From: a virus
Lineage: Duplodnaviria; Caudoviricetes
Virus record (IMG/VR): IMGVR_UViG_3300046528_000074
Coordinates: 1-64,000 of that record
Length of the DNA: 64,000 nucleotides
Strand: one strand, 5' to 3'
In this document: one piece after another, positions 2,997 to 62,571 of the stretch
Numbering within the stretch: the stretch's first letter is position 1
Layout: each line of letters opens with the position of its first letter
The notes under the pieces: generated by a model
Told to the model about the DNA's origin: nothing
The model's database searches: none
What the model saw: only the letters and a program-made list of their open reading frames with translations
Translations under genes and position numbers: made by a program

Positions 2997-4449
2997 TGTG
3001 CTGTCCTTTCTCTGCATCGGCAGCAGCTTGAGCTGCGGTGCGGGTGCGCTTCATCATCCTGATTGCACCTGCGCACTCTGCTGGGTGCATGTCACGGTCA
3101 GCGAAGCGGTCGCAGAGTTGCGCCGCTGCCTCAAGTGCTGCATCGATCAACACATCTGAAACGGCTTTTTCATCTGACGCGCTCACGGTGCTGGTAGTAG
3201 GGGCGACATAACCGCTGTGCTTGTCCATGTCGTAGCAGTCGTCCCACAGTTCCGGCCGCTCGGCGCGCTCGCCAATCAGCCAACGCATGAAGTCGGCCTC
3301 GTAGCGCACCCGGTCGGGATACTCGGAGCGTGCGAACTGGAAGCCATCGGTGAACAGATCGAACCCTTTGCTGTCTTTGCGGTGCAGGACGGCGGTGAAG
3401 TTCGACTTGCCGTTCGACTCGGGCATCGCGCTTTCCCATACCGTCAATTCAGGCTTCGCCTGCTCGGCTGTCTCGGCCTTCGCTGCCTGCTGAGTCATTA
3501 GACTGTCCGCAATATCTGCAAAACTATCGTCTTTGGTCAGGTAATAAAGCGCATCAGCAGCCATCCATTGAGCAGAAAGCTGGCCCAGTGCTGGATTCAG
3601 AATCTGCTTAAGGCGCAGTTGAATCATGTGCAGGTCCGGCGCTGCCTGCTGGGTGACTTCCTGTGCGGTAGGAGCGGCGGCAAGCATGTTCCGCCAGTAG
3701 TTGGCCATCAGCAGCTTTTCCGTGTTGCTTCCAGGTGTCGATGTGCGTGCAGCAGCGAACATCTCTTGCGTCGGCTCAATTGGCACCAGTGCGAAGCCTT
3801 CCGGCACTGCTTGCGCCCTGGTTGCCTGTGACTGGCCCGCGAGCTGCCAGCCTTTCCACAGCAATTCGCGTTCGGCATCGGTGTAGACCTCAGGGCAGAC
3901 CGCTTCGAATGCTTCCAAGTCGCTCGGCTGTGCTGCCTGTGACTGACTTGCAAGGTGGGCTGCAATCGCAGCGCGGGCAACTTCGCGGGCGAACTCGTAT
4001 TCCGCGGACCCATTGACCTCAATGATGTCGCCGGACCATTCCCATCCGCGCAATGTGGTCGAATGCTTCTTCGCGATCTCTTCGATCTGCTCATCCGTCA
4101 GATCGCCGCTCGTCTGCGCTGCTGCGGATGCGCTGCCAGTTGCTGTATCGATCAAGTCTTGCAGGCGGTCGCGCTCTTTCATCCATTGCGCAACCTGGCG
4201 CGCGAGAACTTCGGATTGATCGCCGGTCGGCCGCCCTGCTGCATGCGGTTCGACGAGGTCGGCCAGCGTGCGCGCCAGGTAGTCGGGCTGGCCCGCCATG
4301 ATGTAATTTCCCGATGCCGGGATCTGGAGCGCCAGGCCGGCGCTTTTCGTGCGGCGCATGAGCACCAGCACGCGCTCGATCAATTCGTCTTGCAGGACGC
4401 GGCGAATGTCTTCCGCGCCGTCCGGGGTTGTGGATTCAGTCTTGTGCAT
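2989..4449 (-). CDS. Modular accessory protein, contains left repeat copy
   Basis: Likely start MHKTEST at 4449 (track start 5055 overlaps a real gene); about 220 aa identical to 61519-62571. Confidence 0.75.
   Translation of the reverse strand: MHKTESTTPDGAEDIRRVLQDELIERVLVLMRRTKSAGLALQIPASGNYIMAGQPDYLARTLADLVEPHAAGRPTGDQSEVLARQVAQWMKERDRLQDLIDTATGSASAAAQTSGDLTDEQIEEIAKKHSTTLRGWEWSGDIIEVNGSAEYEFAREVARAAIAAHLASQSQAAQPSDLEAFEAVCPEVYTDAERELLWKGWQLAGQSQATRAQAVPEGFALVPIEPTQEMFAAARTSTPGSNTEKLLMANYWRNMLAAAPTAQEVTQQAAPDLHMIQLRLKQILNPALGQLSAQWMAADALYYLTKDDSFADIADSLMTQQAAKAETAEQAKPELTVWESAMPESNGKSNFTAVLHRKDSKGFDLFTDGFQFARSEYPDRVRYEADFMRWLIGERAERPELWDDCYDMDKHSGYVAPTTSTVSASDEKAVSDVLIDAALEAAAQLCDRFADRDMHPAECAGAIRMMKRTRTAAQAAADAEKGQHNG
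3170..3843. repeat. Left copy of ~674 bp direct repeat
   Basis: Matches 61700-62373 at offset 58530; core 3178-3817 identical by eye, mismatches at 3177, 3818, 3832. Confidence 0.95.
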
Positions 4450-4460
4450 GATTTTTCTCG

Positions 4461-4961
4461 TTATCCGTTCTTGCCGATACCGGCGGGCGCCGCGCGCACA
4501 GTGATTTCGATCTGCTCGCCGTAGTACTGGGCGATCGCGCGCGCCTGCTCCCGTGCCATGCCCACCATCGTCATCAGCCTGCCGTCGCCCATGTCCAGGC
4601 TGAAGTCGATGTCCGGGTCTTCGCCCAGGTTGCCGATCTCGACCAGTTGCCCCTGCAGCCGCGCCAGGTGCGGGCGCATGTCCGGCTCGGGCAGGGTCTT
4701 GACGGTCATGTGGATGCTGCCGTCCAGGTCGAAGCGCTGGAGCATCACGACGCGCATCGGGTCCACGCCCATCGTCTTGATGTACTGTTCCAGCATCGCG
4801 CGCGTGCCCTGCTGGACGCGCTGGCGCATCGCTTCCAGCGCCTCGTCGGTCGCCTTCATTTCGTCTAGCGTCGGCGTCTCGTCCCAGTTCAGCGGGGCCA
4901 GGGGATGCTGATCGTCCTTTCGGCGCGCGAACTGGCGCGCTTCGGTGTTCTTCGTGTCCAT
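4461..4961 (-). CDS. Hypothetical protein
   Basis: MDTKNTEARQ start with GAGAG RBS; operon packing. Confidence 0.7.
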   Translation of the reverse strand: MDTKNTEARQFARRKDDQHPLAPLNWDETPTLDEMKATDEALEAMRQRVQQGTRAMLEQYIKTMGVDPMRVVMLQRFDLDGSIHMTVKTLPEPDMRPHLARLQGQLVEIGNLGEDPDIDFSLDMGDGRLMTMVGMAREQARAIAQYYGEQIEITVRAAPAGIGKNG

Positions 4962-5002
4962 TGGGTTCTCTCGTGTGGTGGCGACCGCGGCCGCCGGGTT
5001 GA

Positions 5003-8545: not shown

Positions 8546-8554
8546 GTCTGCCTT

Positions 8555-10403: not shown

Positions 10404-11354
10404 TCATTGCTCCATGTCGATGGTGTTGGGGTCGTCGTCGGCCCGGGCGCCGCCGTGGCCGTTCAGCTTGTCGAGCGCGGCCTGCACGTCGGCCAGGTAC
10501 TGTTCTTCCGTTTGCGGCACGCCCACGACTTGCGCGCCCGGCTTGGCGCGGGCCGTGTTGATGAAGCGGTCGATCTGGTCGGCGTTGCGCAAGATGACGT
10601 TCAAGCCGTTGTACTTTTGATTATTTTCGTTGGCGCCCATGTTGTGCGGCGTCAGCGAACAGCCCTTGATCGCCTCGCAGATTTCGCGCGGCGAATAGTT
10701 CTTCAAGGCGTTTTCGATCAGCTTGCGGCGCGACTTGTCCAGCTTGCTGCCTGGCGAACTCATGCGCTTGCACCAGTAGTCGAAAACTTCCTGGATCGGG
10801 TCGACCTTGAAAGGCGTGTCGGGCTTTAGCTCGACAAGTGTTTTTGGTTCTGGTTCTGGCTCTGGTTTAGGTTCTGGCTTGGTTCTGGTTTTCGTACTGA
10901 GTGCGAAAGGGTTCTCGAAGGGTTCCGGACTGCTTTCAAAAGCGTCAAGTATTTTTGCCGGAAATTTTGGCGAAAAATCCCGCAAAGCCGCTGCCAGTGC
11001 GGCTTTCACCATGTCCGGACAGTTCAATGAACTGAACATTTTGCCAGCAGCCAACCCCACATTCGGGTTCTCGAACTGGTTCCACTTCAAGTAGTGCCGA
11101 ATCAGCACCCAAAACGTCCTTTCGCAACGGTATGCGAAACCCTTTGCGAATAGTTCCTCAAACCCTTTGCGGACCCTTTCGGGCTTCCATTGAAGATCAT
11201 CAGCAGCATAGGCATCGGTCAGCCGGAAGCATCCAAGCATGTTGCCATGCGGGCAGGTCATCAGATACAGCGCCAGCGTGCGCCCATCCTCCGACATGCC
11301 GCGCGCATCCTCGCTTGTCCAGAATGCGGTGTAGACTTTTCCGTAGTCACGCAT
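10404..11354 (-). CDS. Phage replication initiator (lambda O-like replisome organiser)
   Basis: MRDYGKVYTAFW...LALYLMTCPH N-terminus, internal iteron-like repeats, PEPEPE linker. Confidence 0.8.
   Translation of the reverse strand: MRDYGKVYTAFWTSEDARGMSEDGRTLALYLMTCPHGNMLGCFRLTDAYAADDLQWKPERVRKGFEELFAKGFAYRCERTFWVLIRHYLKWNQFENPNVGLAAGKMFSSLNCPDMVKAALAAALRDFSPKFPAKILDAFESSPEPFENPFALSTKTRTKPEPKPEPEPEPKTLVELKPDTPFKVDPIQEVFDYWCKRMSSPGSKLDKSRRKLIENALKNYSPREICEAIKGCSLTPHNMGANENNQKYNGLNVILRNADQIDRFINTARAKPGAQVVGVPQTEEQYLADVQAALDKLNGHGGARADDDPNTIDMEQ
10904..11181. repeat. Iteron-like repeats, probable replication origin
   Basis: AAACCCTTTGCG at 11137 and 11160, ACCCTTTCG at 11173, inverted CGAAAGGGTT at 10904 and CGAAGGGTT at 10916, in an AT-richer patch. 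Confidence 0.6.
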
Positions 11355-14206: not shown

Positions 14207-14257
14207 GGCGGCTCACTTCAACCAGGCCGGGCATAGTCTCCGGTGAGAAAGGAAGCC

Positions 14258-15151
14258 ATGAAAGACATTCAAGTCGACGAGCGCGGCAATCCCGTGTCGC
14301 CCGAACCGCAGCCGGCGCGCCTGCCGGCCAGGCGCCAGCCGAAACAGCAGATGGCCGTCATCCCCACCACGCCGGCCGAGATGCTGGGCCTGGCGGTCCA
14401 GAACGGCGCCAGCGTCGAGCAACTGGACAAGCTGATCAGCCTGATGGAGCGCACCCGTGCCATCGAGGCGCGCCAGGCGTACGTCACGGCCATGGCGCAG
14501 TTCAAGCAAGACCCGCCGACCATCATCAAGAACAAAACCGCCAAGATGCAGAAGGATGGGCGCGACCTGTACAGCTACGGCTTTGCCGACCTGGCGGCCG
14601 TGTGCGGCGGCATCGTCGAGGCGCTGGCCAAGGTCGACATCAGCCACGCATGGACCACGACGCAGGCCAATGGCCTGATCACCGTCACCTGCACGCTGAC
14701 GCATGCCATGGGCCACAGCGAAAGCACGGCGCTGTCCGCCGGCGCCGACCAGTCCGGCGGCAAGAATTCCGTGCAGGCGATCGGCTCGACGGTCAAGTAC
14801 CTGGAGCGCTATACGCTCCTGGCCATCACCGGCATCGCCGTGCAGGACAATGAGGACGACGACGGCGCCGGCGCCAGCCCGGTCGAGCGCGCCGAGATGC
14901 GCCAGGCCGCGCGCGACATGAAAAGCAACCGCAACCCGCGCCCGGCCGACGTCGCCGCGCAGCGCCAGCAGGCCCCTAAAGCCGCCGATCCGCAGCTGCT
15001 GGCCGACGCGCGCTTCGCTGCCGATCATGGCCGCGGCGCGTTTGAAACGTTCTGGAAGGGTATCAACGGCGAGAAGCGCACGGCGCTGGGCCCGGAGCTG
15101 GATAACCTGCAACAGCGCTGCGATGCGGCCGACGCGCAAGGGGCGAAGTAA
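14258..15151 (+). CDS. erf: ERF-family ssDNA-annealing recombinase
   Basis: FADLAAV...VTCTLTH.MGHSES...QAIGSTVKYLERYTL...DDDG. Confidence 0.9.
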   Translation: MKDIQVDERGNPVSPEPQPARLPARRQPKQQMAVIPTTPAEMLGLAVQNGASVEQLDKLISLMERTRAIEARQAYVTAMAQFKQDPPTIIKNKTAKMQKDGRDLYSYGFADLAAVCGGIVEALAKVDISHAWTTTQANGLITVTCTLTHAMGHSESTALSAGADQSGGKNSVQAIGSTVKYLERYTLLAITGIAVQDNEDDDGAGASPVERAEMRQAARDMKSNRNPRPADVAAQRQQAPKAADPQLLADARFAADHGRGAFETFWKGINGEKRTALGPELDNLQQRCDAADAQGAK

Positions 15152-15774
15152 TGGCGCGCTTCCTGGATTGCGTGCAGGGATCGGAGGAGTGGCATACATA
15201 CAGATGTGGCCACGCCACCGCCAGCCGGTTCGGCGACATCCTGTCCGGCAAGGGTGCGCGCGAGGCGTATCTGTGGGAACTGGTCGCCGAACGCCTGATT
15301 GGCGGCCCGATGCGCGATACCGGCGGCATGGCAAAAAGCTGGGGAACGGATGCGGAAGACCTCGCGCGCCGGGCCTACATGGTGCGTACCGGCCGCATGG
15401 TCAAGCAGGTGGGGTTCGCGATCCACGACCGGATCAAATGGTGCGGCGCCAGCAGCGACGGCCTGGTATTGAGCGAGCGCGGCGCGATCGAAATCAAGAG
15501 CCCGTTCAACAGCGGCATCCACGTGCGCACGCTGGCCAACGGCATGCCGGACATTCACGCCGCGCAGACGCAGGGCAATCTGTGGGTGCTGGATCTGGAC
15601 TGGATCGATTTCATTTCGTACGACCCTGCGCTGCCAGATCCGCTCGACCTGTACGTGCAGCGCATCGAGCGCCGCGCAAACGAAATCAAGTATCTGGAAA
15701 CCGAAGTCAAGAAATTCCTGGCGGAAGTGAATATCGCCTACCAGGACATCCGCAGCAACAACAAAAACCATTGA
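15151..15774 (+). CDS. YqaJ/lambda-type exonuclease
   Basis: QGSEEWHTYRCGHATAS...GASSDGL...IEIKSP...QTQGNLWV. Confidence 0.9.
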   Translation: MARFLDCVQGSEEWHTYRCGHATASRFGDILSGKGAREAYLWELVAERLIGGPMRDTGGMAKSWGTDAEDLARRAYMVRTGRMVKQVGFAIHDRIKWCGASSDGLVLSERGAIEIKSPFNSGIHVRTLANGMPDIHAAQTQGNLWVLDLDWIDFISYDPALPDPLDLYVQRIERRANEIKYLETEVKKFLAEVNIAYQDIRSNNKNH

Positions 15775-15787
15775 GAGGACTGAACCC

Positions 15788-17164
15788 ATGAACACGACCG
15801 ACACCACGAACGACAACATCATCGACGGCCAGATCACCGAAGTTGCGAAGCCGGACAATGCGCTGGTAATCCTGAACCCGGTACAGTTCGCGACCGAACT
15901 GTTCAAGCCGTTCGAGGATCAGCTTGCCAGCGCCAAGCGCGCCGCCAGCCGCACCAAGTACGACGTCACGACGAAGGACGGCATGACCAAGGCGAAGGAA
16001 CTGCGCGCCACGTTCGTGACGATCCGCACGACAGCAGACAAGGCCAAGGTTGCAGCGAAGCGCCCTATCGATGAATCGGGCAAGCTGATTCTGGCGCACT
16101 TCAACAAGTTGGCCGAGGCGGCAAAGGCCGAAGAAGCCAAGCACGACCAGGCCATCAAGGACGAAGAAGCGCGCATCGAGGCCGAGAAGCAGCGCAAGCT
16201 GGCCGAGGAGCGCGCCCGCATCGAAGCGATCGAGGGCCGTATCGCGCACATCCGTTCGCTGGCCTCGCAACTGATGCAGGCCGATTCGGCCACGCTGGCG
16301 GCCAAGGTCGAGGAGCTGGCCACGAAGCGCCTGGAACCGGCCCTGTACGACGAGCACCTGGAAGATGCCGTCAACGCGTTGAACACGGCCGTCGACGACC
16401 TGCGCACGCTGCACCAGGCCGCGCTGGCACGCGAGGCGGAAGCCCGCCGCGTGGCCGCCGAGCGCGAGGAGCTGGCACGCCTGCGCGCCGAACAGGAGCG
16501 CCGCGACGCCGAGGAGCGCCAGCGCCAGGCCGAAGCGGAAGCCGCCGCCGCCGAGCAGCAGCGCAAGATGGAGGCGCAGCAGGCCGAGATCGCGCGCCAG
16601 AACCGCATCATGCAGGACATCCAGTCCATCCAGCAGATCGGCATGCGCGAAGGGGACGCGCGCGCGCTGCTGGACAACCTGGAGTATGCACAGGCGATCA
16701 TCGTCGACGCGGACCGCTTCAACGGCATGGCGCCCATGGCGCAGATGGCCAAGGACATGGCGATCGCGTCGCTGACGTCGAAGTACAACGCGCAGCTGGC
16801 GCTCGAACTGCCGCTGGCGCACGAGGAGGCGCTGGCCAAGCACGAGGAGCTGGTAGCGATCGAGCGCCAGCGTAATGAGCGGACCCCGATGCGCCTGGTG
16901 GAAGTCCCTGACGAGAACTTTGGCCGCGCCTACGCTTTCGCACCAGCCGAAACCATCGAGGCGCAGGCGACGCCAGACGCCGTGCCGACCGAGCCGACGC
17001 CCGAACCACTGGCGCCAAGCACCATCGACATCGTCGATAAGCTGACCGATGCCTACCGCGAGCCGCGCGCGACGATCGCCACCTGGTTGCTGGGCCTGGA
17101 TCAGGCGCTGCTGAACCGCATCATCGATGAGAGGAACCGCAACATCGTGGAGAGCCTGAAGTAA
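15788..17164 (+). CDS. Coiled-coil phage protein
   Basis: YDVTTKDGM N-terminus and long E/A/R-rich coiled coil, typical next to recombination genes. Confidence 0.8.
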   Translation: MNTTDTTNDNIIDGQITEVAKPDNALVILNPVQFATELFKPFEDQLASAKRAASRTKYDVTTKDGMTKAKELRATFVTIRTTADKAKVAAKRPIDESGKLILAHFNKLAEAAKAEEAKHDQAIKDEEARIEAEKQRKLAEERARIEAIEGRIAHIRSLASQLMQADSATLAAKVEELATKRLEPALYDEHLEDAVNALNTAVDDLRTLHQAALAREAEARRVAAEREELARLRAEQERRDAEERQRQAEAEAAAAEQQRKMEAQQAEIARQNRIMQDIQSIQQIGMREGDARALLDNLEYAQAIIVDADRFNGMAPMAQMAKDMAIASLTSKYNAQLALELPLAHEEALAKHEELVAIERQRNERTPMRLVEVPDENFGRAYAFAPAETIEAQATPDAVPTEPTPEPLAPSTIDIVDKLTDAYREPRATIATWLLGLDQALLNRIIDERNRNIVESLK

Positions 17165-48716: not shown

Positions 48717-48962
48717 TTACGACTTCTTGACGTTCAGCGCGGCCTTCGCCACGGCCAGGGTCGCGACGTTGTTGGTGCCCAGGTTGGCGACGGTGCCCGC
48801 CGCGGCGGCATCGAGCTTGGCCAGCGCGGCATTCAGCGACGCGCGCAACTGCTCGATGTCGTCGGTCAGCCCGCTGAACGCAGCCAGCAGCAGGCGCTTG
48901 TCGGACTGGTTGATCGCCATCTTCTGGATTTGCTGCGAGATCGAGACTTGGGGAGATGCCAT
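48717..48962 (-). CDS. Small head-associated protein
   Basis: LNAALAKLDA coiled coil; AAAGGA RBS. Confidence 0.65.
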   Translation of the reverse strand: MASPQVSISQQIQKMAINQSDKRLLLAAFSGLTDDIEQLRASLNAALAKLDAAAAGTVANLGTNNVATLAVAKAALNVKKS

Positions 48963-49014
48963 GTTGATCCTTTCAGGTCAGGCGCCAGGCGCAGGGCCCG
49001 GCGCCGTTATTGGA

Positions 49015-50052
49015 TTACGGCAGGGCCGTGACGCCGACTTCAGCGACAGCCATCCAGCCATTGTTCAGCACGACGGCGGCGAAGTAGTTCTTCGCGCCGA
49101 TGTAGCCGCGCTGGCCCAGCGGGTCGTTCTTGTCCTTCTGGCCCGGCGCGATGTAGGTCACGTCGATGGAGTCCTTGCCGCGCAGTGCGACCTGGCCCCA
49201 TGCGTTCTCCGCGGCCACGATGACCGGGTACACGTCGACGTTTGCGCCAGTGGTCGAGAACAGGCCGGTCGCACCGACAGCCGCGCCCGAGTCCGGGATG
49301 CTTTGCAGTTCCGGCGACAGGATGATGCGGAAGTTCTCGGCGCTGCCTAGCTCCTGCTCGTGCAGGACTTTGCGCTGGCCGTAGATCGCGGTTTCCTTGA
49401 AGCCCGGCAGGTCACGGATGTCCTGTTCGGTGTCGGTGTGCGCGAACACGAGATAGGACGCTTCGACGGCCGCGGTGCCGTAGTTCGGGGTCGGGGCCAG
49501 GATGCCCGTGATGAACTTCGCGTGGTTCGCCTTCAGCGAGCGCGTCATCTTGCGCAGCAGCGACAGGGTGATCTTGCTCGATACCGTGGCGCGTGAGGTG
49601 CCGCCGGCATAGAACTTGTTGGTGCAGCCCTTCAGGGCGCCATAGCGTACCATCTCGCGCACCAGGCCCAGGCGCTCGCCGGTCTGCTTCTTCATCTCGT
49701 CGACGATCTGCGGGCCGTCCTCGTGCATGTCGACCATCTGGTCCGACACGGCGTACAGCACGGCGTACTGCTGCATCTGGACTTCGATGTCCTGCGGGGT
49801 CAGCGTGTCGGCCGCCGGGGTGACGCCTTCCTGCACGATGTGCGCCACGGCGTTCACGTTCCACTGGTTCGGGTTCGACAGGGTCGAGCCGTACGGCAGC
49901 CAGCGGCGGAACGAGATCGTCTTGCTGGCGTTGGCCGGCATCTTCTTCTGCTGGCCGGTGATGCCCAGCACTTCGACGGGCATGGCGTGCGCCAGGATTT
50001 CGCCCTTGAATTTATTAATCCGGGCGCTGGTGTTGAGGGTTTGAATCGTCAT
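49015..50052 (-). CDS. Major capsid protein, N4-gp56 family
   Basis: KTISFRRW...EGVTP...QYA...DPLGQRGYIGAK...ILNNGWM-like end. Confidence 0.9.
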   Translation of the reverse strand: MTIQTLNTSARINKFKGEILAHAMPVEVLGITGQQKKMPANASKTISFRRWLPYGSTLSNPNQWNVNAVAHIVQEGVTPAADTLTPQDIEVQMQQYAVLYAVSDQMVDMHEDGPQIVDEMKKQTGERLGLVREMVRYGALKGCTNKFYAGGTSRATVSSKITLSLLRKMTRSLKANHAKFITGILAPTPNYGTAAVEASYLVFAHTDTEQDIRDLPGFKETAIYGQRKVLHEQELGSAENFRIILSPELQSIPDSGAAVGATGLFSTTGANVDVYPVIVAAENAWGQVALRGKDSIDVTYIAPGQKDKNDPLGQRGYIGAKNYFAAVVLNNGWMAVAEVGVTALP

Positions 50053-50081
50053 TGTGACTTTCCTTCAATGAATGGGTGGGG

Positions 50082-51086
50082 TCAGCGGCTACCCGTGCGC
50101 ACGGCTTTGAAGCCGGCTTCGAATGCCGCATCGTCATCGACTGCGTTAATGCCGGTCGTCGAGCCCCTCGTTGCGGGGATCGCGTTTTCCAGCCGCTTGC
50201 CGCGTTGCTTGTTGGCGTCGGCTTGCGCCGCTGCCTGTTCGTCGCGCTTGTGCTTCCAATCCTTGAATCCCTTGAAAGCATCGACCAGCACTTTTGCATC
50301 CCAGGAGGACGCGAGCAGGTCTTGCGCGGCTTGCGGCAGCTGCGAACGCCATTCGGAAAACTCGGGCGTCTTGCGAAGGTCGCGCCAGTCGGGATGCACT
50401 GCATCGACGATGGCTTGCTCCTTCTGCTTGAGCACCTGCTGGACACGTTCGTCAGCGAGCGGATCGACCATGACGGGATCGGCTTGCGGCGCCGGGGCGT
50501 CGCCTGCGTTGCCCTGTGGGTCGGGGTTCGCTGCTGCCGGCGTTGCGAAGGCATCGGCTAGGTCTTCCTCGAGCATCTGCCCCAGCTCGGGGAATTCCGC
50601 TCGCAGGCGCTTGAGTTGCGCCAGCGCCGGCTTCTGGCCGTCGGCCGCGCGTGCCGCGATCGCCTTTAGCTCCTGCTGGATCGAACCGATCTTGCCGGCC
50701 GTGGTATCACGGGTGCGGCGCAGTTCTTCCTGCAGTTGCGGGATCGTGGCCGCTGCGGCGCGCAGGGCCTCGACCTCGGCTTTCGTCAGCGCGACGGGCG
50801 CATTGGCTTCGGCCTGCGCCTGGGCTTGCGCCGCGGCATCGGCTGCGGCCTGTGCGGCGGCTGCATCCGCTTCGGCTTGCGCGCGGGCGGCTGCATCGTC
50901 TTCGTGTCCATCCTGGCCATTCGATTCGGCGGCATGGCGGTCGGCGTTGTTCGTCGTGTCGGTCGATCCTTCGACGTGCGGCATGGTCTGCTCGCGCGTG
51001 GTGTTGAAGGCGGCCATGAACTCGGCTTCTGCCTGCGCTTCCTGTTCGGGCGTCAGGGTTTCCAACTGGTCATTCTCTGCTGCCAT
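50082..51086 (-). CDS. Scaffold protein
   Basis: Acidic, helical; AFEAGF tail; between portal and capsid. Confidence 0.75.
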   Translation of the reverse strand: MAAENDQLETLTPEQEAQAEAEFMAAFNTTREQTMPHVEGSTDTTNNADRHAAESNGQDGHEDDAAARAQAEADAAAAQAAADAAAQAQAQAEANAPVALTKAEVEALRAAAATIPQLQEELRRTRDTTAGKIGSIQQELKAIAARAADGQKPALAQLKRLRAEFPELGQMLEEDLADAFATPAAANPDPQGNAGDAPAPQADPVMVDPLADERVQQVLKQKEQAIVDAVHPDWRDLRKTPEFSEWRSQLPQAAQDLLASSWDAKVLVDAFKGFKDWKHKRDEQAAAQADANKQRGKRLENAIPATRGSTTGINAVDDDAAFEAGFKAVRTGSR

Positions 51087-51101
51087 GGGGTGCTTCTCCA
51101 C

Positions 51102-51126
51102 AAACAAAAAACCGCCTCGCGGCGGC
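51102..51126 (-). terminator. Terminator upstream of scaffold gene
   Basis: GCCGCC-GCGA-GGCGGT-TTTTTGTTT. Confidence 0.6.
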
Positions 51127-51154
51127 TATTACGACAAGGGGCCGATGGTCCCTG

Positions 51155-51376
51155 TCACTCGTGCCCGTCCTGGCTTTCACCAGCGGCGAGCAATGCTTTC
51201 AATTCCATGATCCGGCCGCGCAGCATGGCGGTCTTGTCTGCGGGCAGGTCGTTGTCGTTCTGGCGCCGGTACATATCGAGCCGGGCCTGCAGGCGCTCGC
51301 GCATGCGCAACCAGACATCGCTGTTGCGGTCCCGCTCGGACAGCGTCAGGTCGGTGGGGTCGATCGGCGGCCTCAT
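51155..51376 (-). CDS. Small conserved protein after portal
   Basis: TAMLRGRIMELKALL motif. Confidence 0.7.
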   Translation of the reverse strand: MRPPIDPTDLTLSERDRNSDVWLRMRERLQARLDMYRRQNDNDLPADKTAMLRGRIMELKALLAAGESQDGHE

Positions 51377-53811
51377 GCCTGGAACGCCTCACCATTCGGC
51401 GCGCGGCCGGCGGGCTCGGTCGGCGGCGCGATGACCTGCGCGGCGGGGTTGTGGTGCTTGTGCAGGTCGGCGGCCGTCGACATCGCCGACAGTTCCTTCT
51501 GCGTCTGCAGTTTCATCGTGGTCTGCGCCAGCTCGGCCTTCACGGCATCGAGCGACATCTGGCGCTTGTTCGCATAGTCGAGCATGGCCAGGTCGCGCTT
51601 CATCTGCAATTCGGCCTGCTGGGACTGGGCGTCGGCCTGCGTGCGCGCGGCCTCGGCTTGCGCGAATACGGCATCGCGGTCCATGTCCGACTTGATGCGC
51701 TGCTGCTGGGTGCCGGCGGCGATCTCGGCGGCCTTTACGCGCGCCTGGGCACCGATCTGGGCCACTTGAATCTTCGGGTCCTGCGGCGGCGGGCTCTGCT
51801 CGGCCTGCTTCTTCTGCTGCGCCATCTCGGCCGGGCTGAACTGGAAGTTGGACGGATCCAGGCGCTGCGCCTTCATGTACTGCTTGATCCAGCGCGTCGG
51901 GTCGATGCCGAATACCGGGTTGCCGATCAACTGGCCCATGGCAATGATGGCCTGGTTCTGGGCGTCGCGTTCGAACAGCGCCGACGAGCCGCGCGCGGCC
52001 ACGATGTATTCGCCCTTTTCGTCCTGCTCGCCGTAGATCAGCAGCCACTCGTAATAGCGCAGCAGGTGCGGCACCGTGATGCGGTCGTCGAACAGCTTGG
52101 CGATCTGGCGCAGCGGCGTGTTCGAGTTGTTCGTCAGCAGCTGCATGCCGCCCACCGTCTCGCTGGCCTGGCCCTGCTGGCCCTGCATCAGCATCGGCAG
52201 GCCGGTGCTGTCCTCGGCCAGCTTCTGCGCATACTGGACGATCTTCAGCAGTTCATCGGTCAGCATCGGGATCGTGATCGCGGCGAATGCCTTGCGCACG
52301 TCGTCGATGTTGGTCGCGTCCTTGAGCATCTTCCACAGCATGCGCGGGCGGATCGTGTAGGGGTCGGCCGAGTTCATCGGCTTGATGGCACCGTCGGCGA
52401 TGACGATCTGCGGGCCGGCGGCAAGGCCTGCGTTGTCCAGCAGGTTGCGCGTGGCGGCCGTCAGCATGCGCTGAGGCGTGCGCACCTGGCGCGCCACACC
52501 GATGCCAGCCCAGTGGCCGTCACGCTCCTGCCACACCATGACGTCGTAGGGGAATTCGCCGCTGTCCAGCGTGCTGCGCGCGGCCTTGATGACGCGGTCG
52601 TTCACCATCGTGATCATGACCGGCAGCACGGTGTTCTGGTCGACGTCCAGGCCGGCGGCGTTCAGGTCGCCAGCCGTGGCCACGCCGTAGAAGTACCAGA
52701 TTTCGAACGTCTCGGCGTCCGGCGCCTGGTAGTTCGTATCTTCCTGATGCTTGCGCTGCGGGCCTTCCGACAGGCATTGCTTGATCGTGTCTTCCAGGTA
52801 GAACGGCTGGCCGTCCTCGCCGCCGGTCCCGATCAGGTCGCGCAGCTCGCGCGCCGTGATCATGTCCTTCTCCCAGGTGTAATTACCGCGATGGATGTCT
52901 TCGCCGCATGCGGGGTCCGGGTAGAAATTCCAGTAGCTGATGCGCTTCGATACGGGCGCCGTCTTGTTCTGGATCGACATGCCGACGATGTTGCCGTTCG
53001 CATCACGCTCGATCGCGCGCGCCACGCTCTTGACCGGGAACGGGCCTTTCAGGATGCCCACGCCCACCTTGGCGGCGTCCTTCAGGACCTTGCGCTGCTC
53101 GGCGCCATATTGGCCTTCTTCCAGCCAATCCTCGATGCGGCGCTTGGCCTTGGCCACCTTGGCGCGCGCGTCGCCTGCCATGGCGGTAGCGGCCTCCCCC
53201 AGCGTGGCGAAGTTGCCGGGCCCGGACCATGGCTTATCACTGTGCATCGCCTCGATGACGTCGGGCATCGGCGTCTCGCGCAGGTCCCAGTTCGGATCAT
53301 CGGTCGGCAGCAGCATGTCGGCCGCGCGGCCGGCGCTGAAGTCCACGTAAGCACGCGTGATGTTCGGGAAGACGTTCGAGCCCGTGCCTGCGGCGGCGCT
53401 GCCGGACAGGCTGGCGCCGCCCGTGCCACCGAAGTCGCGCGGCTTCAGGGTCGCATGCTCGTTGCGGTTGGCGTCGTCGATGCCCTCGTAGAACTCCTCG
53501 TCCTCGCGCCAGATCATTTCGATGTTCGACTGCTGGCGGGCATTGACGGCGGTTTCGCGCTTCTTGGCCAGCGCCGCGGCGAATGCGTCCAGGCGGGCCT
53601 GGCGGTCTTCGGCCTCCTGGCGCTCCTGGTCCGCCATCTTCTCGGCCAGCACCTCGTCGACCTCGTCGCCGGCCGCAATCACGGCATCGGTCTGGTTGTC
53701 TTCCAGGCCCAGCTGGTCGTCGTCCTGGCTGCCAGCCATGGCGCGCGCATCGGCTGGGCGCGGCTGTGCGGCGCGGGCGGCCTTGCGGCGGCGTGCGGTC
53801 TGTTTATCCAT
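51373..53811 (-). CDS. Portal protein (long helical barrel)
   Basis: PNITR...FYPDP...GIGVARQVRTPQ; Q-rich C-terminus; follows terminase. Confidence 0.85.
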   Translation of the reverse strand: MDKQTARRRKAARAAQPRPADARAMAGSQDDDQLGLEDNQTDAVIAAGDEVDEVLAEKMADQERQEAEDRQARLDAFAAALAKKRETAVNARQQSNIEMIWREDEEFYEGIDDANRNEHATLKPRDFGGTGGASLSGSAAAGTGSNVFPNITRAYVDFSAGRAADMLLPTDDPNWDLRETPMPDVIEAMHSDKPWSGPGNFATLGEAATAMAGDARAKVAKAKRRIEDWLEEGQYGAEQRKVLKDAAKVGVGILKGPFPVKSVARAIERDANGNIVGMSIQNKTAPVSKRISYWNFYPDPACGEDIHRGNYTWEKDMITARELRDLIGTGGEDGQPFYLEDTIKQCLSEGPQRKHQEDTNYQAPDAETFEIWYFYGVATAGDLNAAGLDVDQNTVLPVMITMVNDRVIKAARSTLDSGEFPYDVMVWQERDGHWAGIGVARQVRTPQRMLTAATRNLLDNAGLAAGPQIVIADGAIKPMNSADPYTIRPRMLWKMLKDATNIDDVRKAFAAITIPMLTDELLKIVQYAQKLAEDSTGLPMLMQGQQGQASETVGGMQLLTNNSNTPLRQIAKLFDDRITVPHLLRYYEWLLIYGEQDEKGEYIVAARGSSALFERDAQNQAIIAMGQLIGNPVFGIDPTRWIKQYMKAQRLDPSNFQFSPAEMAQQKKQAEQSPPPQDPKIQVAQIGAQARVKAAEIAAGTQQQRIKSDMDRDAVFAQAEAARTQADAQSQQAELQMKRDLAMLDYANKRQMSLDAVKAELAQTTMKLQTQKELSAMSTAADLHKHHNPAAQVIAPPTEPAGRAPNGEAFQA

Positions 53812-53822
53812 GCGTTGCTTTC

Positions 53823-55355
53823 TCAGTATCCTGCGCCCGGGTCATGCGGGCGGAATGGTTCGACGTTGACAGGCGTGTTGTCGACCGGGCGGAACGGCTC
53901 GGCGAAGGTGATCGACAGCGCATCGGCAATGTCAGGGGACAGGCCGCCGCGCTTCTTGATGTTTTCCTTGCTCTCGATCTTGATGCGGCCCTTGCTGTCG
54001 TACGTGTAGCCGGGCTCGACCAGGTCGGCCTGCAGTTCGTCATCATCCGGGATGCGTGCGGGCTTCTCAGCAAACCAGTTGCGCATGCGGCACCACATTT
54101 CGGCGCGCTTGTTCACGTACAGATCGTCCTCGTCCGCGCTTTCGCTGGCCTGCACCGGCACGACGATGTCGCCGTAGTTCAGTTCTTCCAGGCGGTCATA
54201 GACGCCCACGCCCAGCCCGATGATGTCGATGAACACCTTCTGCGGCTTCTCGTCCTCGATCAGCTTGGCCAGGATGCCGGCCACCTGCATCGTGTTGCGC
54301 TTGGCCAGCGTGCGGATCTTCGTGACCACGCGGCCGCGGCGCCACACGATCGCCGTGCGGTCGTCGCCGTAGCGGGCCGGGTCGCAGCCAATGACCAGCG
54401 GGACGTGCGCCTGCGGACCGATGCCCTTTTCCTTGCGCGCGGCCAGGATGTTTGGGATCGGGATCAGGCTGTCGCGCTTGGCCGATACGAACGCCTCGGC
54501 GGCCGTGTTCGGATACTCCTGCTGGAACCGCGTCTCGTCGCCCTTGAAGTCGTCCGCGATCTTGCGGCGCCGGAAGTACAACTGCCCGTCGGTCAGGCCG
54601 AACAGGTGGCGCAGCTCGTCTTCCTCGTCGGTGCTTTGAAAGTCGGCGGGCGGCTCCTTCGTGTATTCCTCTTGCCAGAACCAGGGCACGAAGATGGCCT
54701 GATATTCGGATTCGCCGCGCTCGGCCATGCGCCAGCGCGTATGGAAGTCGCCGCCGACGCCGTTGGCGGTCGACTCCAGGATGATCTCGGTGTCGTCCAT
54801 ATCTGCAATCGCCTGGCCAAGACCTGGCCAAATGGTGTCTGGGTTCGGCCAGAAGCCGATCTCCGAACCGTGGAACAGTTGCAGCGCCTTGCCGCGGCCG
54901 ACCTGCTTGCTGCCGGCCGTCGCGACCGAGTAGCGGCAGTCGAGCCGGTCGAAATACAGTTCCTTGTCGTTCGAGCGGCCCGCGCTGGGCTGCACGAACG
55001 CCGGCAGGTGCTCGTGAAAGCGCTTGGTCATGTTGAACAGCGTGTCGGTCGAGTCCGACAGGTGCGTCAGGATGAAGGCTGACAGACCCTTGCGAAACGA
55101 CAGCTTGTGCATGTAACGCCCTTGCACGTAGGTGCTGATGCCCTGCTGGCGGCCCTTCAGCACCAGCGCGCGGACCTTGCCCTTTTCGCGCAACTGCTTC
55201 TCGATGCGGCGGTGCACGTAGCGCTGGGCCGCGTTCAGTTCGAACGGGACCATCTTGCCGGCCTTGTTCAGCACCTTCAGGCAGCGCGGCGCATAGTATT
55301 CGAAGTCGTCCTTCAGCAGTCGCAGCTTCTCGGCGCGGTCGGCCGCGATCGTCAT
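53823..55355 (-). CDS. terL: Terminase large subunit
   Basis: LKGRQQGIST, FHGSE, ILESTANG, GCDPARYGDD, SPDIADA. Confidence 0.95.
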   Translation of the reverse strand: MTIAADRAEKLRLLKDDFEYYAPRCLKVLNKAGKMVPFELNAAQRYVHRRIEKQLREKGKVRALVLKGRQQGISTYVQGRYMHKLSFRKGLSAFILTHLSDSTDTLFNMTKRFHEHLPAFVQPSAGRSNDKELYFDRLDCRYSVATAGSKQVGRGKALQLFHGSEIGFWPNPDTIWPGLGQAIADMDDTEIILESTANGVGGDFHTRWRMAERGESEYQAIFVPWFWQEEYTKEPPADFQSTDEEDELRHLFGLTDGQLYFRRRKIADDFKGDETRFQQEYPNTAAEAFVSAKRDSLIPIPNILAARKEKGIGPQAHVPLVIGCDPARYGDDRTAIVWRRGRVVTKIRTLAKRNTMQVAGILAKLIEDEKPQKVFIDIIGLGVGVYDRLEELNYGDIVVPVQASESADEDDLYVNKRAEMWCRMRNWFAEKPARIPDDDELQADLVEPGYTYDSKGRIKIESKENIKKRGGLSPDIADALSITFAEPFRPVDNTPVNVEPFRPHDPGAGY

Positions 55356-55984
55356 AGCGAGTCGAGCCAGTCCTCGAGCGTGCCGGCCCCCTTGTTCTTG
55401 CCATCGTCCGACAGGCCGTATGCCTCGCGCTCGAGTGCCACCAGCGTCTTGAGGGTGTCGGCCAGCTTCTTCATGCTGTCCACGCGCGATGGCAGGCTCA
55501 TCGTCTTGTCGAACGCTTCCAGCATCTGCTGGCGGCGACGCTCGGCTGCTTTGTCCACCGGATCGGTGCCCACGATGGGCGGCCCGGCGACCAGGTCGGC
55601 CAACTGCTCGAACAGGTCCTGGTTGAACGTGCCGCGCTCCAGTTCCTCCAGCAGCGCCATGCCCAGCGAGCGCGAGCGCTGGATGTCCTTGCGGTGCGAC
55701 ATCATGACCATGGCCACGACGTCCGCATTGGCCTCGATGATCGCCGACTCCGGTACGCGGCTTTGTTCGCGTACCTCTTTGCGTACCGCTTCGTTGCGTA
55801 CCAGCGCTTCCGCCTTCGCTCTTACCTTTTCGGCAAGATCGCGCTCCCAGTCTTCTTTCTTGGCGCGCTTCCTGATTGCGCCTTCCGACAGCCCATGATC
55901 AGCAGCTATCTGGCGCAAGGACTTCACGCCCGCACGATAGTCGGCCTCGACCTTTGGCCAGTCGATTTGTTTCTGATCGGACAT
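55352..55984 (-). CDS. terS: Terminase small subunit
   Basis: DW..VEADYRAG.KSLRQIA..HGLSEGAIRKRAKKEDW; LEREAYGL. Confidence 0.85.
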   Translation of the reverse strand: MSDQKQIDWPKVEADYRAGVKSLRQIAADHGLSEGAIRKRAKKEDWERDLAEKVRAKAEALVRNEAVRKEVREQSRVPESAIIEANADVVAMVMMSHRKDIQRSRSLGMALLEELERGTFNQDLFEQLADLVAGPPIVGTDPVDKAAERRRQQMLEAFDKTMSLPSRVDSMKKLADTLKTLVALEREAYGLSDDGKNKGAGTLEDWLDSL

Positions 55985-60505: not shown

Positions 60506-61224
60506 TGCGGTCCTTTCTGTTCTGCCGCGCTGGCGGCGATTGCTGCGTCGATATCGCGAGTGATGGCGAAGTAGCTGCTGGTGCCAAGCCGCCGGGCGAG
60601 GTCGCGCGCCTTTTCTCGCGTTTCTGCGTCAGCGTGGTCCTCGTTAAGCCAGCGGAATCGAATCGCATCCCGCTCGGTATCCTCGCCAGCATTCGCTGCA
60701 TGGGCTTCGCCCTGCTGGGCGAGTGCTACGCGAAGGTCGGAGATTTCGGCATGCTTGTACTGATCCAAGCAACCGACCTGCTGCCATTCGTCGCCAAACA
60801 TGAATTGTGCGCGTTCCTGCCACGTCTTGATGCCCGGCGCAGCTTCCCGGCTGGGTGCTGGGGCGCGGCCTAACACTACATCCATTTGCGCCATTACTTT
60901 CGCATGGCCTTCGGGATCGGCGCGACGAGACACAGCTTCGTAAATTTCGCCGTCGCTTGGCTCGCTCGCGCTTGCCGTGGTGGCCTCGCAGCCCTTGCAC
61001 AGCGGGTTGTAACCCCTTTGCGGGCATGCGACGTGATGCGGGACCGGGGCGCTTGCAGTGGTGGCCGCCGGGTCCTTGTAGATGCTGAGCGGGTCGATGC
61101 GCTCGATGGTGCCGTCCGCGTGCGTGCGCATGATGCCGGTGCCGTGCTGAATTGCATCCTTGGCGATTTTATCGACAGCCGCTCCTGCCTGCTCGGTTAC
61201 GCGCGGCATGTTCTGGTTATCCAT
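60502..61224 (-). CDS. Modular accessory protein
   Basis: MDNQNMPRVTEQ start, repeated ATTASA linkers, DAIRFRWL module. Confidence 0.75.
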   Translation of the reverse strand: MDNQNMPRVTEQAGAAVDKIAKDAIQHGTGIMRTHADGTIERIDPLSIYKDPAATTASAPVPHHVACPQRGYNPLCKGCEATTASASEPSDGEIYEAVSRRADPEGHAKVMAQMDVVLGRAPAPSREAAPGIKTWQERAQFMFGDEWQQVGCLDQYKHAEISDLRVALAQQGEAHAANAGEDTERDAIRFRWLNEDHADAETREKARDLARRLGTSSYFAITRDIDAAIAASAAEQKGPQ

Positions 61225-61522
61225 GGTTCTGTCCTTTCTCTGCATCGGTAGCAGCGCACGCTGCGGTGCGGCGGTAGTCCTTGATGACCTTGCCATCGGC
61301 GTCGAAGTAGCGCGTTTCCCAGGTAGGATGGCAGTTGTGCGTGCCCTTGCCCCACTTGAGCTGGTTCACGAACACCACGTCGAGGTTCGCGCTGCTGTTC
61401 ATGCCGACGATGGTTCCGAGGTGGCCGTCCGACTCGACCATCATCCCGAGCGATACCCATCCCATGCCCCGGCAGCGTTCCATGTCGGCCTTGAACTGCT
61501 CGGCTTTCGATATGCGCTTCAT
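61217..61522 (-). CDS. Hypothetical protein
   Basis: GMMVE...GTIVG...NLDV...NCHPTW. Confidence 0.7.
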   Translation of the reverse strand: MKRISKAEQFKADMERCRGMGWVSLGMMVESDGHLGTIVGMNSSANLDVVFVNQLKWGKGTHNCHPTWETRYFDADGKVIKDYRRTAACAATDAEKGQNHG

Positions 61523-62571
61523 GCTGCACCGCCTTTCTCATCTGCGCTGCCCGACGCGCTCACGGTGCGCAGGAATCGGATGCGGTTGATGATGCTGAAT
61601 GCAGCCGAGGATTGCGGCGGATTGCTCATCAACGCATTGGTGTTCGACAGCTCGCTTTCGGCAATCTCGATGCACTTGGCATACGCCTGATTGCGAATCT
61701 CATCTGGCGCGCTCACGGTGCTGGTAGTAGGGGCGACATAACCGCTGTGCTTGTCCATGTCGTAGCAGTCGTCCCACAGTTCCGGCCGCTCGGCGCGCTC
61801 GCCAATCAGCCAACGCATGAAGTCGGCCTCGTAGCGCACCCGGTCGGGATACTCGGAGCGTGCGAACTGGAAGCCATCGGTGAACAGATCGAACCCTTTG
61901 CTGTCTTTGCGGTGCAGGACGGCGGTGAAGTTCGACTTGCCGTTCGACTCGGGCATCGCGCTTTCCCATACCGTCAATTCAGGCTTCGCCTGCTCGGCTG
62001 TCTCGGCCTTCGCTGCCTGCTGAGTCATTAGACTGTCCGCAATATCTGCAAAACTATCGTCTTTGGTCAGGTAATAAAGCGCATCAGCAGCCATCCATTG
62101 AGCAGAAAGCTGGCCCAGTGCTGGATTCAGAATCTGCTTAAGGCGCAGTTGAATCATGTGCAGGTCCGGCGCTGCCTGCTGGGTGACTTCCTGTGCGGTA
62201 GGAGCGGCGGCAAGCATGTTCCGCCAGTAGTTGGCCATCAGCAGCTTTTCCGTGTTGCTTCCAGGTGTCGATGTGCGTGCAGCAGCGAACATCTCTTGCG
62301 TCGGCTCAATTGGCACCAGTGCGAAGCCTTCCGGCACTGCTTGCGCCTTGGTTGCCTGTGAGTGGCCCGCGAGGTGGACGAACCTGTGCAGTCCTTCTTT
62401 GGCGTCGTGCTCAACGATGGCGTTAAAAATGCGCTCGCGGTAGTGCCGGTTCGTTTCCATCATTTGCAGGTGGTTGTCGATAACGGCGCGGCCTCGGCGT
62501 TCGCCCTCTCGCGCAGCTTCTTTGATTCGCTCATCCGTCAGATCGCCGGTCGGCTGTGTATCCTTGTTCAT
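61519..62571 (-). CDS. Modular accessory protein, contains right repeat copy
   Basis: GGAG RBS; middle identical to 2989-4449. Confidence 0.8.
   Translation of the reverse strand: MNKDTQPTGDLTDERIKEAAREGERRGRAVIDNHLQMMETNRHYRERIFNAIVEHDAKEGLHRFVHLAGHSQATKAQAVPEGFALVPIEPTQEMFAAARTSTPGSNTEKLLMANYWRNMLAAAPTAQEVTQQAAPDLHMIQLRLKQILNPALGQLSAQWMAADALYYLTKDDSFADIADSLMTQQAAKAETAEQAKPELTVWESAMPESNGKSNFTAVLHRKDSKGFDLFTDGFQFARSEYPDRVRYEADFMRWLIGERAERPELWDDCYDMDKHSGYVAPTTSTVSAPDEIRNQAYAKCIEIAESELSNTNALMSNPPQSSAAFSIINRIRFLRTVSASGSADEKGGAA
61700..62373. repeat. Right copy of ~674 bp direct repeat
   Basis: Matches 3170-3843. Confidence 0.95.

What the first reader, a model, noticed from the sequence alone, without database searches (positions are those of the whole stretch)
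3170..62373. A whole podovirus genome nested inside an N4-like phage, bounded by a 674 bp direct repeat
Seen: N4-type ATPase (right edge) and gp25-like/helicase genes (left edge) are separated by a GC-richer, complete second phage, flanked by two near-identical copies of part of an accessory gene (offset 58530 bp). Removing one unit leaves a compact ATPase-small genes-gp25-helicase run and a circle whose leftward operon reads uninterrupted into the late promoter. Known: this ATPase and VWA-like gene are near neighbours in N4-like phages. Inference: either a single-crossover co-integrate made by homologous recombination (the inner phage has ERF/YqaJ/NinB but no visible integrase), or an assembler loop joining two co-occurring phages at a shared repeat. 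The artefact is at least as likely. Either way, two unrelated phage groups share 640 identical bp, implying very recent exchange and probably a shared host.
Basis: partly seen in the sequence, partly recalled or inferred. Interest (0 to 1): 0.8.

Follow-up and report, generated by a model that had tools for sequence, protein, structure and literature searches.

The report
Two phages joined by assembly error
The repeat is real, but the "phage inside a phage" is almost certainly an assembly error that threaded two separate soil phages together through a 640-base stretch they share, and that stretch is an ordinary trace of recent gene exchange.

Summary
Window 3170-3843 and 61700-62373 are a 674-bp direct repeat with 3 mismatches and a 640-bp exact core. 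It brackets a GC-richer, gene-complete 58,530-bp podovirus-like genome (B) inside a partial N4-like phage (A).

The nesting is most likely not a real molecule.
- In the probable source run, B contigs have k-mer depth 50-59 and A contigs 115-150.
- Those contigs stop exactly 30 nt past the SNPs that bound the exact core. That is a four-armed graph node.
- In a second run, one 32,961-bp contig reads A-left, one repeat copy, then A-right, with no B inside.
- The closest relatives of B are stand-alone contigs of 58-60 kb. Two of them have matching ends, and one is collinear with B across the supposed junction.
- The record holds no integrase.

What remains real is that a virulent-type N4-like phage and a phage with a lambdoid-type early region (Erf, exonuclease, NinB) share 640 identical bases. 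The patch lies in an accessory gene of unknown function, within a loosely homologous module. This is ordinary phage mosaicism. A shared host is plausible but untested. The record's 100% completeness estimate is misleading.

The parts
1..3169 (-). A1: left segment of the outer N4-like phage A. It holds the gp37/Dda-like helicase (3-881, cut by the record's start), the N4 gp25-like VWA/metallopeptidase gene (881-1993), and small ORFs 2089-2508 and 2793-3017.
   Evidence: phrog_325 at E 1e-74 and phrog_1314 at E 7e-105. tblastn of the gp25-like protein hits 677 phage records, and the 25 listed are ~68-80 kb phages annotated metallopeptidase / VWA / HNH. DNA hits to N4 gp37-like helicases of Pseudomonas phages.
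3170..3843 (.). Left copy of the 674-bp repeat R (exact core 3178-3817).
2989..4446 (-). Left hybrid gene, 485 aa. It has a B-type N-terminal domain (4446-3844), then R, then an A-side C-terminus (3169-2989). The 688-aa ORF reaching 5055 is spurious upstream of 4446 by third-position GC.
   Evidence: Frame and GC3 analysis. Alignment of the two copies. The N-terminal residues 3-94 have 49-53% homologues in 3 of 5 close B relatives.
3844..61699 (.). Unique part of phage B, 57,856 bp. With one R copy it makes a 58,530-bp unit.
   Evidence: GC 0.61-0.68. Full gene set. 49 of 69 ORFs have hits in collinear order in the 59,691-bp relative G003, which has matching ends.
14243..19364 (+). B rightward early operon: Erf (14243-15151), exonuclease (15151-15774) and NinB/Orf (18873-19364).
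   Evidence: phrog_155, phrog_149 and phrog_72.
10404..11354 (-). B replication protein (DnaD-like loader / initiator).
   Evidence: phrog_1701 at E 4e-36 and phrog_16167.
40006..55984 (-). B late genes: small terminase 55352-55984, large terminase 53823-55355, portal 51373-53811, major head protein 49015-50052, tailspike 42120-44642, endolysin 40650-41294, spanin 40006-40653.
61700..62373 (.). Right copy of R.
61519..62571 (-). Right hybrid gene, 350 aa. It has an A-side N-terminus (62571-62374), then R, then a B-side C-terminus (61699-61519).
   Evidence: Only unknown-function PHROGs match (5913, 12449, 7138).
61188..61271 (.). A 90%-identical patch, also present at 2960-3043. It covers the gene junction downstream of the R gene, where the next gene starts MQRKD..MDNQNMPRVTEQ in both phages.
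62374..64000 (-). A2: start of the right segment of phage A. It holds a 178-aa ORF (62574-63110) and the gp24-type ATPase (63028-64074, running past the window).
   Evidence: phrog_1297 at E 3e-116.

Best explanation
The record is a chimeric contig. Two separate phages co-occur in one rhizosphere sample. Phage A is N4-like (Schitoviridae-type), and about 43.2 kb of it is present here. Phage B is a 58,530-bp circularly assembling podovirus-like phage with a lambdoid-type early region.

Both carry an accessory gene of unknown function that contains the same 640-bp stretch. In a short-read assembly graph this stretch collapses to one node with four arms. B then forms a loop hanging on A's path. 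The assembler walked A-left, R, all of B, R again, then A-right. That walk yields exactly one B unit flanked by two R copies.

Shown: the repeat, the depth step, the contig breaks at the core edges, the resolved A form, and free-standing B relatives. Inferred: the assembler's loop traversal itself (I recall this behaviour of SPAdes-type path extension; no call tested it), and that the source library was short-read.

The shared patch itself is real biology: a recently exchanged mosaic segment. It probably moved by homology-assisted recombination in a co-infected cell, or through a third phage or prophage.
For: (1) Depth in the probable source run X1 (table 8). All pieces below match the record with 0 other letters.
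- B contigs: 59.1 (a 51,684-bp contig), 49.9 and 53.5.
- A2 contigs: 123.5, 119.7, 115.2 and 133.5.
- The contig carrying the A1-to-R joint: depth 150.

(2) X1 contigs end exactly 30 nt past the SNPs that bound the exact core, as k=31 contigs do at a graph branch.
- The B-end contig stops at locus 9737, which is 61737 (SNP 61707 + 30).
- The A2 contig starts at locus 10318, which is 62318 (SNP 62348 - 30).
- The 51,684-bp B contig running down from 55471 has just the length to end at 3788 (SNP 3818 - 30).

(3) The resolved form of A is directly bridged in run X2, from a different sample and study, by one 32,961-bp contig at depth 14.3.
- It lies on locus 8523-8552 and 9188-9255, the two patches that A1 shares with B's end.
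- It then carries 142 letters not in the locus. A1 3028-3169 is exactly 142 nt.
- It then reads R and A2 through to locus 20000 with 1 mismatch.
- Its loose end before 8523 equals window 2781-2810 letter for letter.
- In X1, the loose end of the contig with the same joint equals window 2930-2959.
- 11,351 nt of the X2 contig lie left of R. The record has only 3,169 nt there.

(4) Run X3 holds B pieces at 0-1 other letters (8 listed pieces).

(5) Of the 6 closest viral contigs by B's large terminase (73-85% identity), 4 are 58,072-59,691 bp long. The other two are fragments of 40,048 and 4,111 bp. Two of the four are classed as having direct terminal repeats, and I found 127 identical end bases in both. 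G003 is collinear with B, and it links the homologues of B's start (4461-5006 and the N-terminus of the R gene) to those of B's end (55352-57378) on one molecule.

(6) Without B, the ATPase and the gp25-like gene of A lie 2,504 bp apart. With B they lie 61,034 bp apart. In Achromobacter phage JWAlpha the same two genes are about 550 bp apart with two small genes between them.

(7) No PF00589 or PF00239 recombinase is found in the record.

Against: No read or read pair spanning R was available, because all four runs are kept as k=31 contigs. Those contigs give the same graph for resolved and co-integrated forms. A minority of real co-integrates in X1 is therefore not excluded.

The depths are per-contig k-mer means, not read mapping. 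X1 also holds a minor A haplotype at depth 38-51 (table 3). That is close to B's depth, so depth alone cannot rule out that this haplotype carries B.

B encodes Erf, an exonuclease and NinB. These could catalyse a single crossover at 640 bp of identity.

No contig was seen closing B across R in this data set.

That the source library is short-read is inferred only from the mean Logan contig length: 18.46 million contigs totalling 2,570 Mb.
Confidence: 0.9

Rival explanations
1. A real co-integrate. During co-infection of one cell, a single crossover within the 640-bp identity fused circular or concatemeric B into A's genome, perhaps helped by B's Erf, exonuclease and NinB. The contig then reports a true but probably unpackageable replicative intermediate.
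For: The structure is exactly what a single crossover would give, with hybrid alleles at the three edge SNPs. B encodes Erf, an exonuclease and NinB. A and B are both abundant in X1. A minor A haplotype (depth 38-51) is close to B's depth of 50-59.
Against: An assembler loop gives the same structure. Contig depth outside is more than twice that inside, so most A copies cannot carry B. A exists resolved in X2. B's relatives are stand-alone genomes of 58-60 kb. A full N4-type genome plus B would be about 130 kb, against about 72-75 kb for the N4-like records hit here, so it could not be packaged (inference). No spanning evidence exists.
Confidence: 0.06
2. B is an integrative element, like a prophage or satellite, that inserts site-specifically into N4-like phage genomes. 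R would be its duplicated attachment site.
For: A complete unit is flanked by direct repeats.
Against: No tyrosine or serine recombinase is found in the record, while the same searches hit 14 of 14 and 12 of 14 control genomes. A 674-bp coding repeat with divergent homologous flanks is unlike an att site. The depth step and the resolved forms argue against it as above.
Confidence: 0.01
3. The repeat is itself an artefact. R would belong to only one of the two phages and would have been copied into the other by mis-assembly.
For: Exact searches for the R core in the viral and metagenome contig collections found no other copy.
Against: In X1 both B arms run 38 and 56 nt into R, with B-side alleles, at B depth and with 0 mismatches. 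Both A arms do the same at A depth. The X2 contig carries R inside A. Homologous but diverged patches flank R in both phages.
Confidence: 0.03

Closest known systems
Chimeric contigs in viral metagenome assemblies, caused by regions shared between co-existing viruses (PMC5610896, passages read; PMC3901335, search listing only)
   Same: Two distinct genomes are joined at a highly similar region. The parts differ in depth. The contig is longer than either genome, and a completeness tool is fooled.
   Different: This is the special loop case: a whole circular genome is traversed once inside another phage's path, which mimics an insertion with flanking direct repeats. The benchmarks describe chimeras in general. 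I did not find this configuration described in the passages I read.
Phage mosaicism by relaxed homologous recombination driven by Rad52-like recombinases (De Paepe et al. 2014, PMC3945230, abstract read)
   Same: A recently exchanged, near-identical fragment is bordered by diverged homologous sequence. It lies in an accessory region of a phage that encodes an Erf-type annealing protein and an Orf/NinB mediator.
   Different: One partner here is an N4-like, virulent-type phage. [quoted passage not shown] B's lifestyle is unknown, since no integrase was found.
Schitoviridae (N4-like phages), for example Achromobacter phage JWAlpha
   Same: A has the virion RNA polymerase, two small RNA polymerase subunits, the gp24-type ATPase, a gp25-like gene, a gp37-like helicase, and the N4-type portal and terminase. 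The ATPase-to-gp25 neighbourhood is restored once B is removed.
   Different: Only about 43 kb is present, and the region between the helicase and the virion RNA polymerase is missing. The major head gene is only about 74% identical in DNA to the nearest records. The ATPase-gp25 interval carries about 2.5 kb of extra accessory genes, including the R gene.

Membership tests
Assembly chimera through a shared repeat (graph loop) | The two parts have different sequencing depth, changing at the repeat. | tested here: met
   X1 contig k-mer depths are 49.9-59.1 for B and 115.2-150 for A. Caveat: these are per-contig means of Logan contigs, not mapped reads.
Assembly chimera through a shared repeat (graph loop) | Independent contigs break at the borders of the exact repeat. 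| tested here: met
   Breaks fall at 61737, 62318 and (by length) 3788. Each is 30 nt beyond a bounding SNP.
Assembly chimera through a shared repeat (graph loop) | Each partner exists on its own in resolved form. | tested here: met
   For A, a 32,961-bp X2 contig bridges A1-R-A2. For B the evidence is indirect: X3 holds B pieces, and relatives are stand-alone genomes of 58-60 kb, two with matching ends and one collinear across the junction.
Assembly chimera through a shared repeat (graph loop) | No read or pair supports the chimeric junction combination. | not testable with these tools
   All four runs are held as contigs only, and a 640-bp exact core cannot be spanned by k=31 contigs.
Homologous-recombination co-integrate | Equal copy number of inner and outer parts in the sample. 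| tested here: not met
   The contig depth difference is more than two-fold. A minority co-integrate is not excluded.
Integrated prophage-like element | A site-specific recombinase is encoded by the element. | tested here: not met
   PF00589 and PF00239 give 0 matches in the 101,705-bp record. Controls were positive in 14 of 14 and 12 of 14 genomes.
Schitoviridae (outer phage A) | A giant virion-packaged RNA polymerase. | tested here: met
   The 2701-aa ORF at record 93517-101622 matches phrog_2206 at 1592 bits, over profile positions 794-3397 of 3406.
Schitoviridae (outer phage A) | A two-subunit N4 RNAPII-type polymerase and an N4 gp24/gp25-type gene pair. | tested here: met
   phrog_2051 (E 6e-144), phrog_2166 (E 3e-99), phrog_1297 (E 3e-116) and phrog_1314 (E 7e-105).
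Schitoviridae (outer phage A) | A complete genome of about 70-75 kb with the N4-type replication module. | not testable with these tools
   The record stops inside the helicase and 83 nt after the virion RNA polymerase gene. The region between them is absent from the record.
DUF551 (PF04448), for the shared gene | A match to the Pfam model. | tested here: not met
   No Pfam family matches either copy at E <= 0.01. There are only leads. One is a tblastn hit of 58.5% over residues 197-278 to a phage gene annotated DUF551. The other is Atlas feature scores of 0.78-0.79.

The most novel reading that the evidence does not exclude
A minority of molecules in the source sample really are A::B co-integrates. 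They would be made by Erf/exonuclease/NinB-assisted single crossover at the 640-bp identity in cells co-infected by an N4-like phage and phage B. That would be a snapshot of the intermediate through which virulent-type and lambdoid-type phages exchange modules.
Probability: 0.05. Interest if true: 0.5.

Novelty: not a real feature. Interest (0 to 1): 0.15.

Why it matters
The practical point is for databases. A 101.7-kb viral record rated 100% complete is in fact a fragment of about 43 kb from one phage plus a whole 58.5-kb second phage. It should be split at the repeat.

The biological point is modest. A 640-bp identical patch links an N4-like phage to a phage with a lambdoid-type recombination module. 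This shows very recent exchange across very different phage types in a rhizosphere community. Such exchange is considered rare between virulent and temperate phages (PMC3945230, abstract), but it belongs to the known kind of phage mosaicism.

Tried and rejected
- An exact 52-nt R-core search found 0 hits in viral contigs and 0 in metagenome contigs.
- The R peptide searched in genome contigs gave 45 pattern matches, none of them a relative.
- The R peptide searched in viral contigs gave 4 loci, each matching only part of R (residues 127-222, 133-218, 1-129 and 1-62, at 72-92%). In 3 of the 4 loci the neighbours are B-type genes (exonuclease, NinB, methyltransferase), and none has an N4-type gene. 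This hints at transfer from the B side to A but does not prove it.
- The A ATPase found nothing in viral contigs, so no close A relative was available to show the ancestral state.
- Megablast of the interior against phage records matched about 240 nt in 4 records, under features annotated as DNA methyltransferase in two of them.
- Pfam found nothing for the R genes, their neighbours or ten other B ORFs. PDB sequence searches found nothing for the 2167-aa protein or the R gene. The Atlas gave only low scores.
- Host inference failed. B's large terminase in bacterial genomes reaches at most 52% identity, scattered over many taxa.
- An X1 loose end behind locus 10556 matches nothing in the window at up to 2 mismatches, and I left it unexplained.
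- Parts without cover were seen: the B part is hardly covered in X2, and the A2 part is hardly covered in X3 and X4.
- Earlier notes of this scan held nothing for this genome.
- Supplements of the cited papers were not seen.
Full report
**The observation.** The window is the first 64,000 bases of a single 101,705-bp virus record.
- A self-comparison finds one long repeat. Window 3170-3843 matches 61700-62373 over 674 bp with no gaps, at offset 58,530.
- The 3 mismatches are at 3177, 3818 and 3832, so 3178-3817 is a 640-bp exact core.
- All three mismatches lie within 26 nt of the repeat's edges, and all three change an amino acid.
- Short, more diverged collinear patches lie on both sides: 2960-3043 ~ 61188-61271 at 90%, 2811-2840 ~ 60523-60552, and 4071-4116 ~ 62509-62556 at 83%.
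- GC is about 0.56 left of the repeat, 0.61-0.68 over most of the interior, and 0.49-0.58 from 62.5 kb to the record's end.

**The outer phage (A).**
- The left 3.2 kb holds a Dda/gp37-like helicase, cut by the record's start, and an N4 gp25-like gene.
- Right of the second repeat copy come a gp24-type ATPase, two N4-type RNA polymerase subunit genes with an HNH gene between them, terminase and portal.
- Further on come a structural protein at the place where phage records annotate the major head gene, and a 2701-aa virion RNA polymerase ending 83 nt before the record's end.
- A is therefore N4-like. Only 43,175 bp of it is here (3,169 + 674 + 39,332), and the part between the helicase and the virion polymerase is missing.
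- In Achromobacter phage JWAlpha the ATPase and the gp25-like gene are about 550 bp apart. In this record they are 61,034 bp apart, or 2,504 bp if one repeat unit is removed.

**The inner phage (B).** One unit is 58,530 bp.
- It has small and large terminase, portal, major head protein, tailspike, endolysin, spanin, two giant proteins (2167 and 1389 aa), a DnaD-like replication protein and two methyltransferases.
- It also has a rightward operon with Erf, an exonuclease and NinB.
- No tyrosine or serine recombinase is found anywhere in the record, with positive controls.
- Apart from the repeat gene, only 2 of 45 A ORFs have a blastp match (E <= 1e-3) among 69 B ORFs. These are the first 19 residues of the gene downstream of R, and 70 N-terminal residues of the virion polymerase ORF against B's 2167-aa protein.
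- These ORF sets come from my own crude GC3-based gene calls.

**The repeat gene.** Both copies lie in frame in leftward genes.
- The left gene is 485 aa (2989-4446). The 688-aa ORF that reaches 5055 is spurious upstream of 4446 by GC3.
- The right gene is 350 aa (61519-62571).
- Each is a hybrid: its N-terminus comes from one phage's side and its C-terminus from the other's.
- Only unknown-function PHROGs match. Pfam gives nothing at E <= 0.01.
- A DUF551 relationship for residues 197-293 is only a lead.

**The test with public runs.** Four rhizosphere-metagenome runs hold words of record 57001-67000: X1 (share 1.00, possibly the source), X2 (0.53), X3 (0.39) and X4 (0.10). All are kept as k=31 Logan contigs. 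I laid them on record 52001-72000.

In X1:
- Pieces identical to the record have per-contig depth 59.1, 49.9 and 53.5 on the B side.
- On the A side the depths are 123.5, 119.7, 115.2 and 133.5. The contig that carries the A1-to-R joint has depth 150.
- Contigs end at 61737 and start at 62318. The 51,684-bp B contig running down from 55471 has the exact length to end at 3788.
- Each of these three points is 30 nt beyond a bounding SNP. That is the signature of a branch node in a k=31 graph.

In X2:
- One 32,961-bp contig (depth 14.3) lies on the two small patches that A1 shares with B's end.
- It then has 142 letters foreign to the laid stretch, the exact length of A1 3028-3169.
- It then reads R and 9.6 kb of A2 with one mismatch.
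- Its loose end equals window 2781-2810. The loose end of the X1 contig with the same joint equals window 2930-2959.
- This contig is phage A with its flanks joined across a single R copy. It extends 8.2 kb further left than the record does.

X3 holds B pieces at 0-1 other letters.

**Relatives of B.**
- The six viral contigs with the most similar large terminase (73-85%) measure 58,840, 40,048, 59,691, 4,111, 58,072 and 59,103 bp.
- Two of them are classed as having direct terminal repeats. I found 127 identical end bases in both.
- In the 59,691-bp relative, 49 of 69 B ORFs have hits in collinear order. The homologues of B's start (4461-5006 and the N-terminus of the R gene) and of B's end (55352-57378) sit on one molecule, separated by an approximately 8-kb variable accessory region.
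- Three of five relatives have the N-terminal domain of the 485-aa gene, but none has the R part.
- Parts of R occur separately in four other viral contigs. In three of them the neighbours are B-type early genes, and none has an N4-type gene.

**Reading.** The depth step, the contig breaks, the bridged resolved form of A and the free-standing 58-60 kb relatives of B all fit two separate phages whose shared 640-bp stretch collapsed in the assembly graph.
- B then forms a loop on A's path, and one traversal of the loop gives the record as it stands. That SPAdes-type path extension traverses such loops once is recalled, not tested.
- The mean Logan contig length in X1 is about 139 nt (18.46 million contigs, 2,570 Mb). 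This suggests short reads, which cannot span 640 bp.
- Published benchmarks report chimeric contigs where co-existing viruses share highly similar regions (PMC5610896, passages read).

**What stays open.**
- k=31 contigs give the same graph for resolved and co-integrated forms, so a minority of real co-integrates is not excluded.
- X1 also has a minor A haplotype at depth 38-51, near B's depth (table 3).
- B encodes a recombination module that could make such a crossover.
- A co-integrate would be about 130 kb if A is the size of the N4-like records hit here (71.7-75.3 kb among the listed hits). That is too large for either capsid (inference).
- I put the real co-integrate at about 6%.

**What is real.** Two very different phages share a freshly exchanged patch inside a looser homologous accessory module.
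- This is the known pattern of mosaicism promoted by Rad52-like recombinases (PMC3945230, abstract read).
- One partner is of virulent type, and that abstract reports no such exchange for E. coli phages.
- The direction of transfer is suggested only by the neighbours. It may run from the lambdoid-type side to A, possibly through a third phage.
- A shared host is not shown.

Noticed in passing
record 65711-65882 and 69010-69079 (L004 13711-13882, 17010-17079): Phage A has two haplotypes in run X1. Alternative letters are carried by contigs of depth 38.6-50.6, against a total depth of 123-149 (table 3). This microdiversity may be why A's assembly broke at both ends.
   Followed up: no
window 19467-25970 (-), 49015-50052 (-), 51373-53811 (-); G003 24009-27020: B's virion module shows distant kinship with N4-like phages. 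B's portal and A's portal both hit phrog_1216. B's head protein has weak tblastn hits in records whose organism names (Achromobacter, Vibrio, Escherichia) overlap those of the N4-like hits, though I did not check that they are N4-like. The first 70 residues of B's 2167-aa protein are 36% identical to the start of A's virion polymerase ORF. The B relative G003 has homologues (37-55%) of three A virion genes, at record 89939-93147.
   Followed up: partly
record 93517-101622 (L002 11517-19622) and 91513-93147: The 2701-aa virion RNA polymerase ORF covers only profile positions 794-3397 of 3406. The first ~790 positions are unaccounted for. They might lie in the upstream 544-aa ORF, which would mean a split gene or a frameshift.
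   Followed up: no
L001 3678-6553 (record 65678-68553): An HNH endonuclease gene (230 aa, phrog_374) sits between the two N4-type RNA polymerase subunit genes of phage A. This is reminiscent of the endonuclease inside RNAP2 of JWAlpha.
   Followed up: no
window 2793-3017 (-) and 60502-61296 (-): The gene downstream of the R gene is 74 aa in A and 247-264 aa in B. The two share the first 19 residues (18 of 19 identical) and visibly similar C-terminal residues (seen by eye in the printed sequences, not aligned). It looks as if one is an internal deletion or insertion version of the other. B also has an extra 101-aa gene (61217-61522) whose last 17 residues match the C-terminus of the left R-gene copy.
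   Followed up: partly
L004 9736-9988 (record 61736-61988, inside R): In X3 and X4, a contig of depth 11.4 and 12.6 respectively joins 9736 to 9988, skipping 251 nt of R (table 5). This may be a third R variant in another phage of those samples.
   Followed up: no
record 71253 (L004 19253): One base of the record is absent from the contigs of both X1 and X2, at full depth (table 4). This is probably a single-base error in the record or a fixed indel.
   Followed up: no
whole record: The record is classed as linear with an estimated completeness of 100. It is actually a partial phage plus a whole second one.
   Followed up: yes
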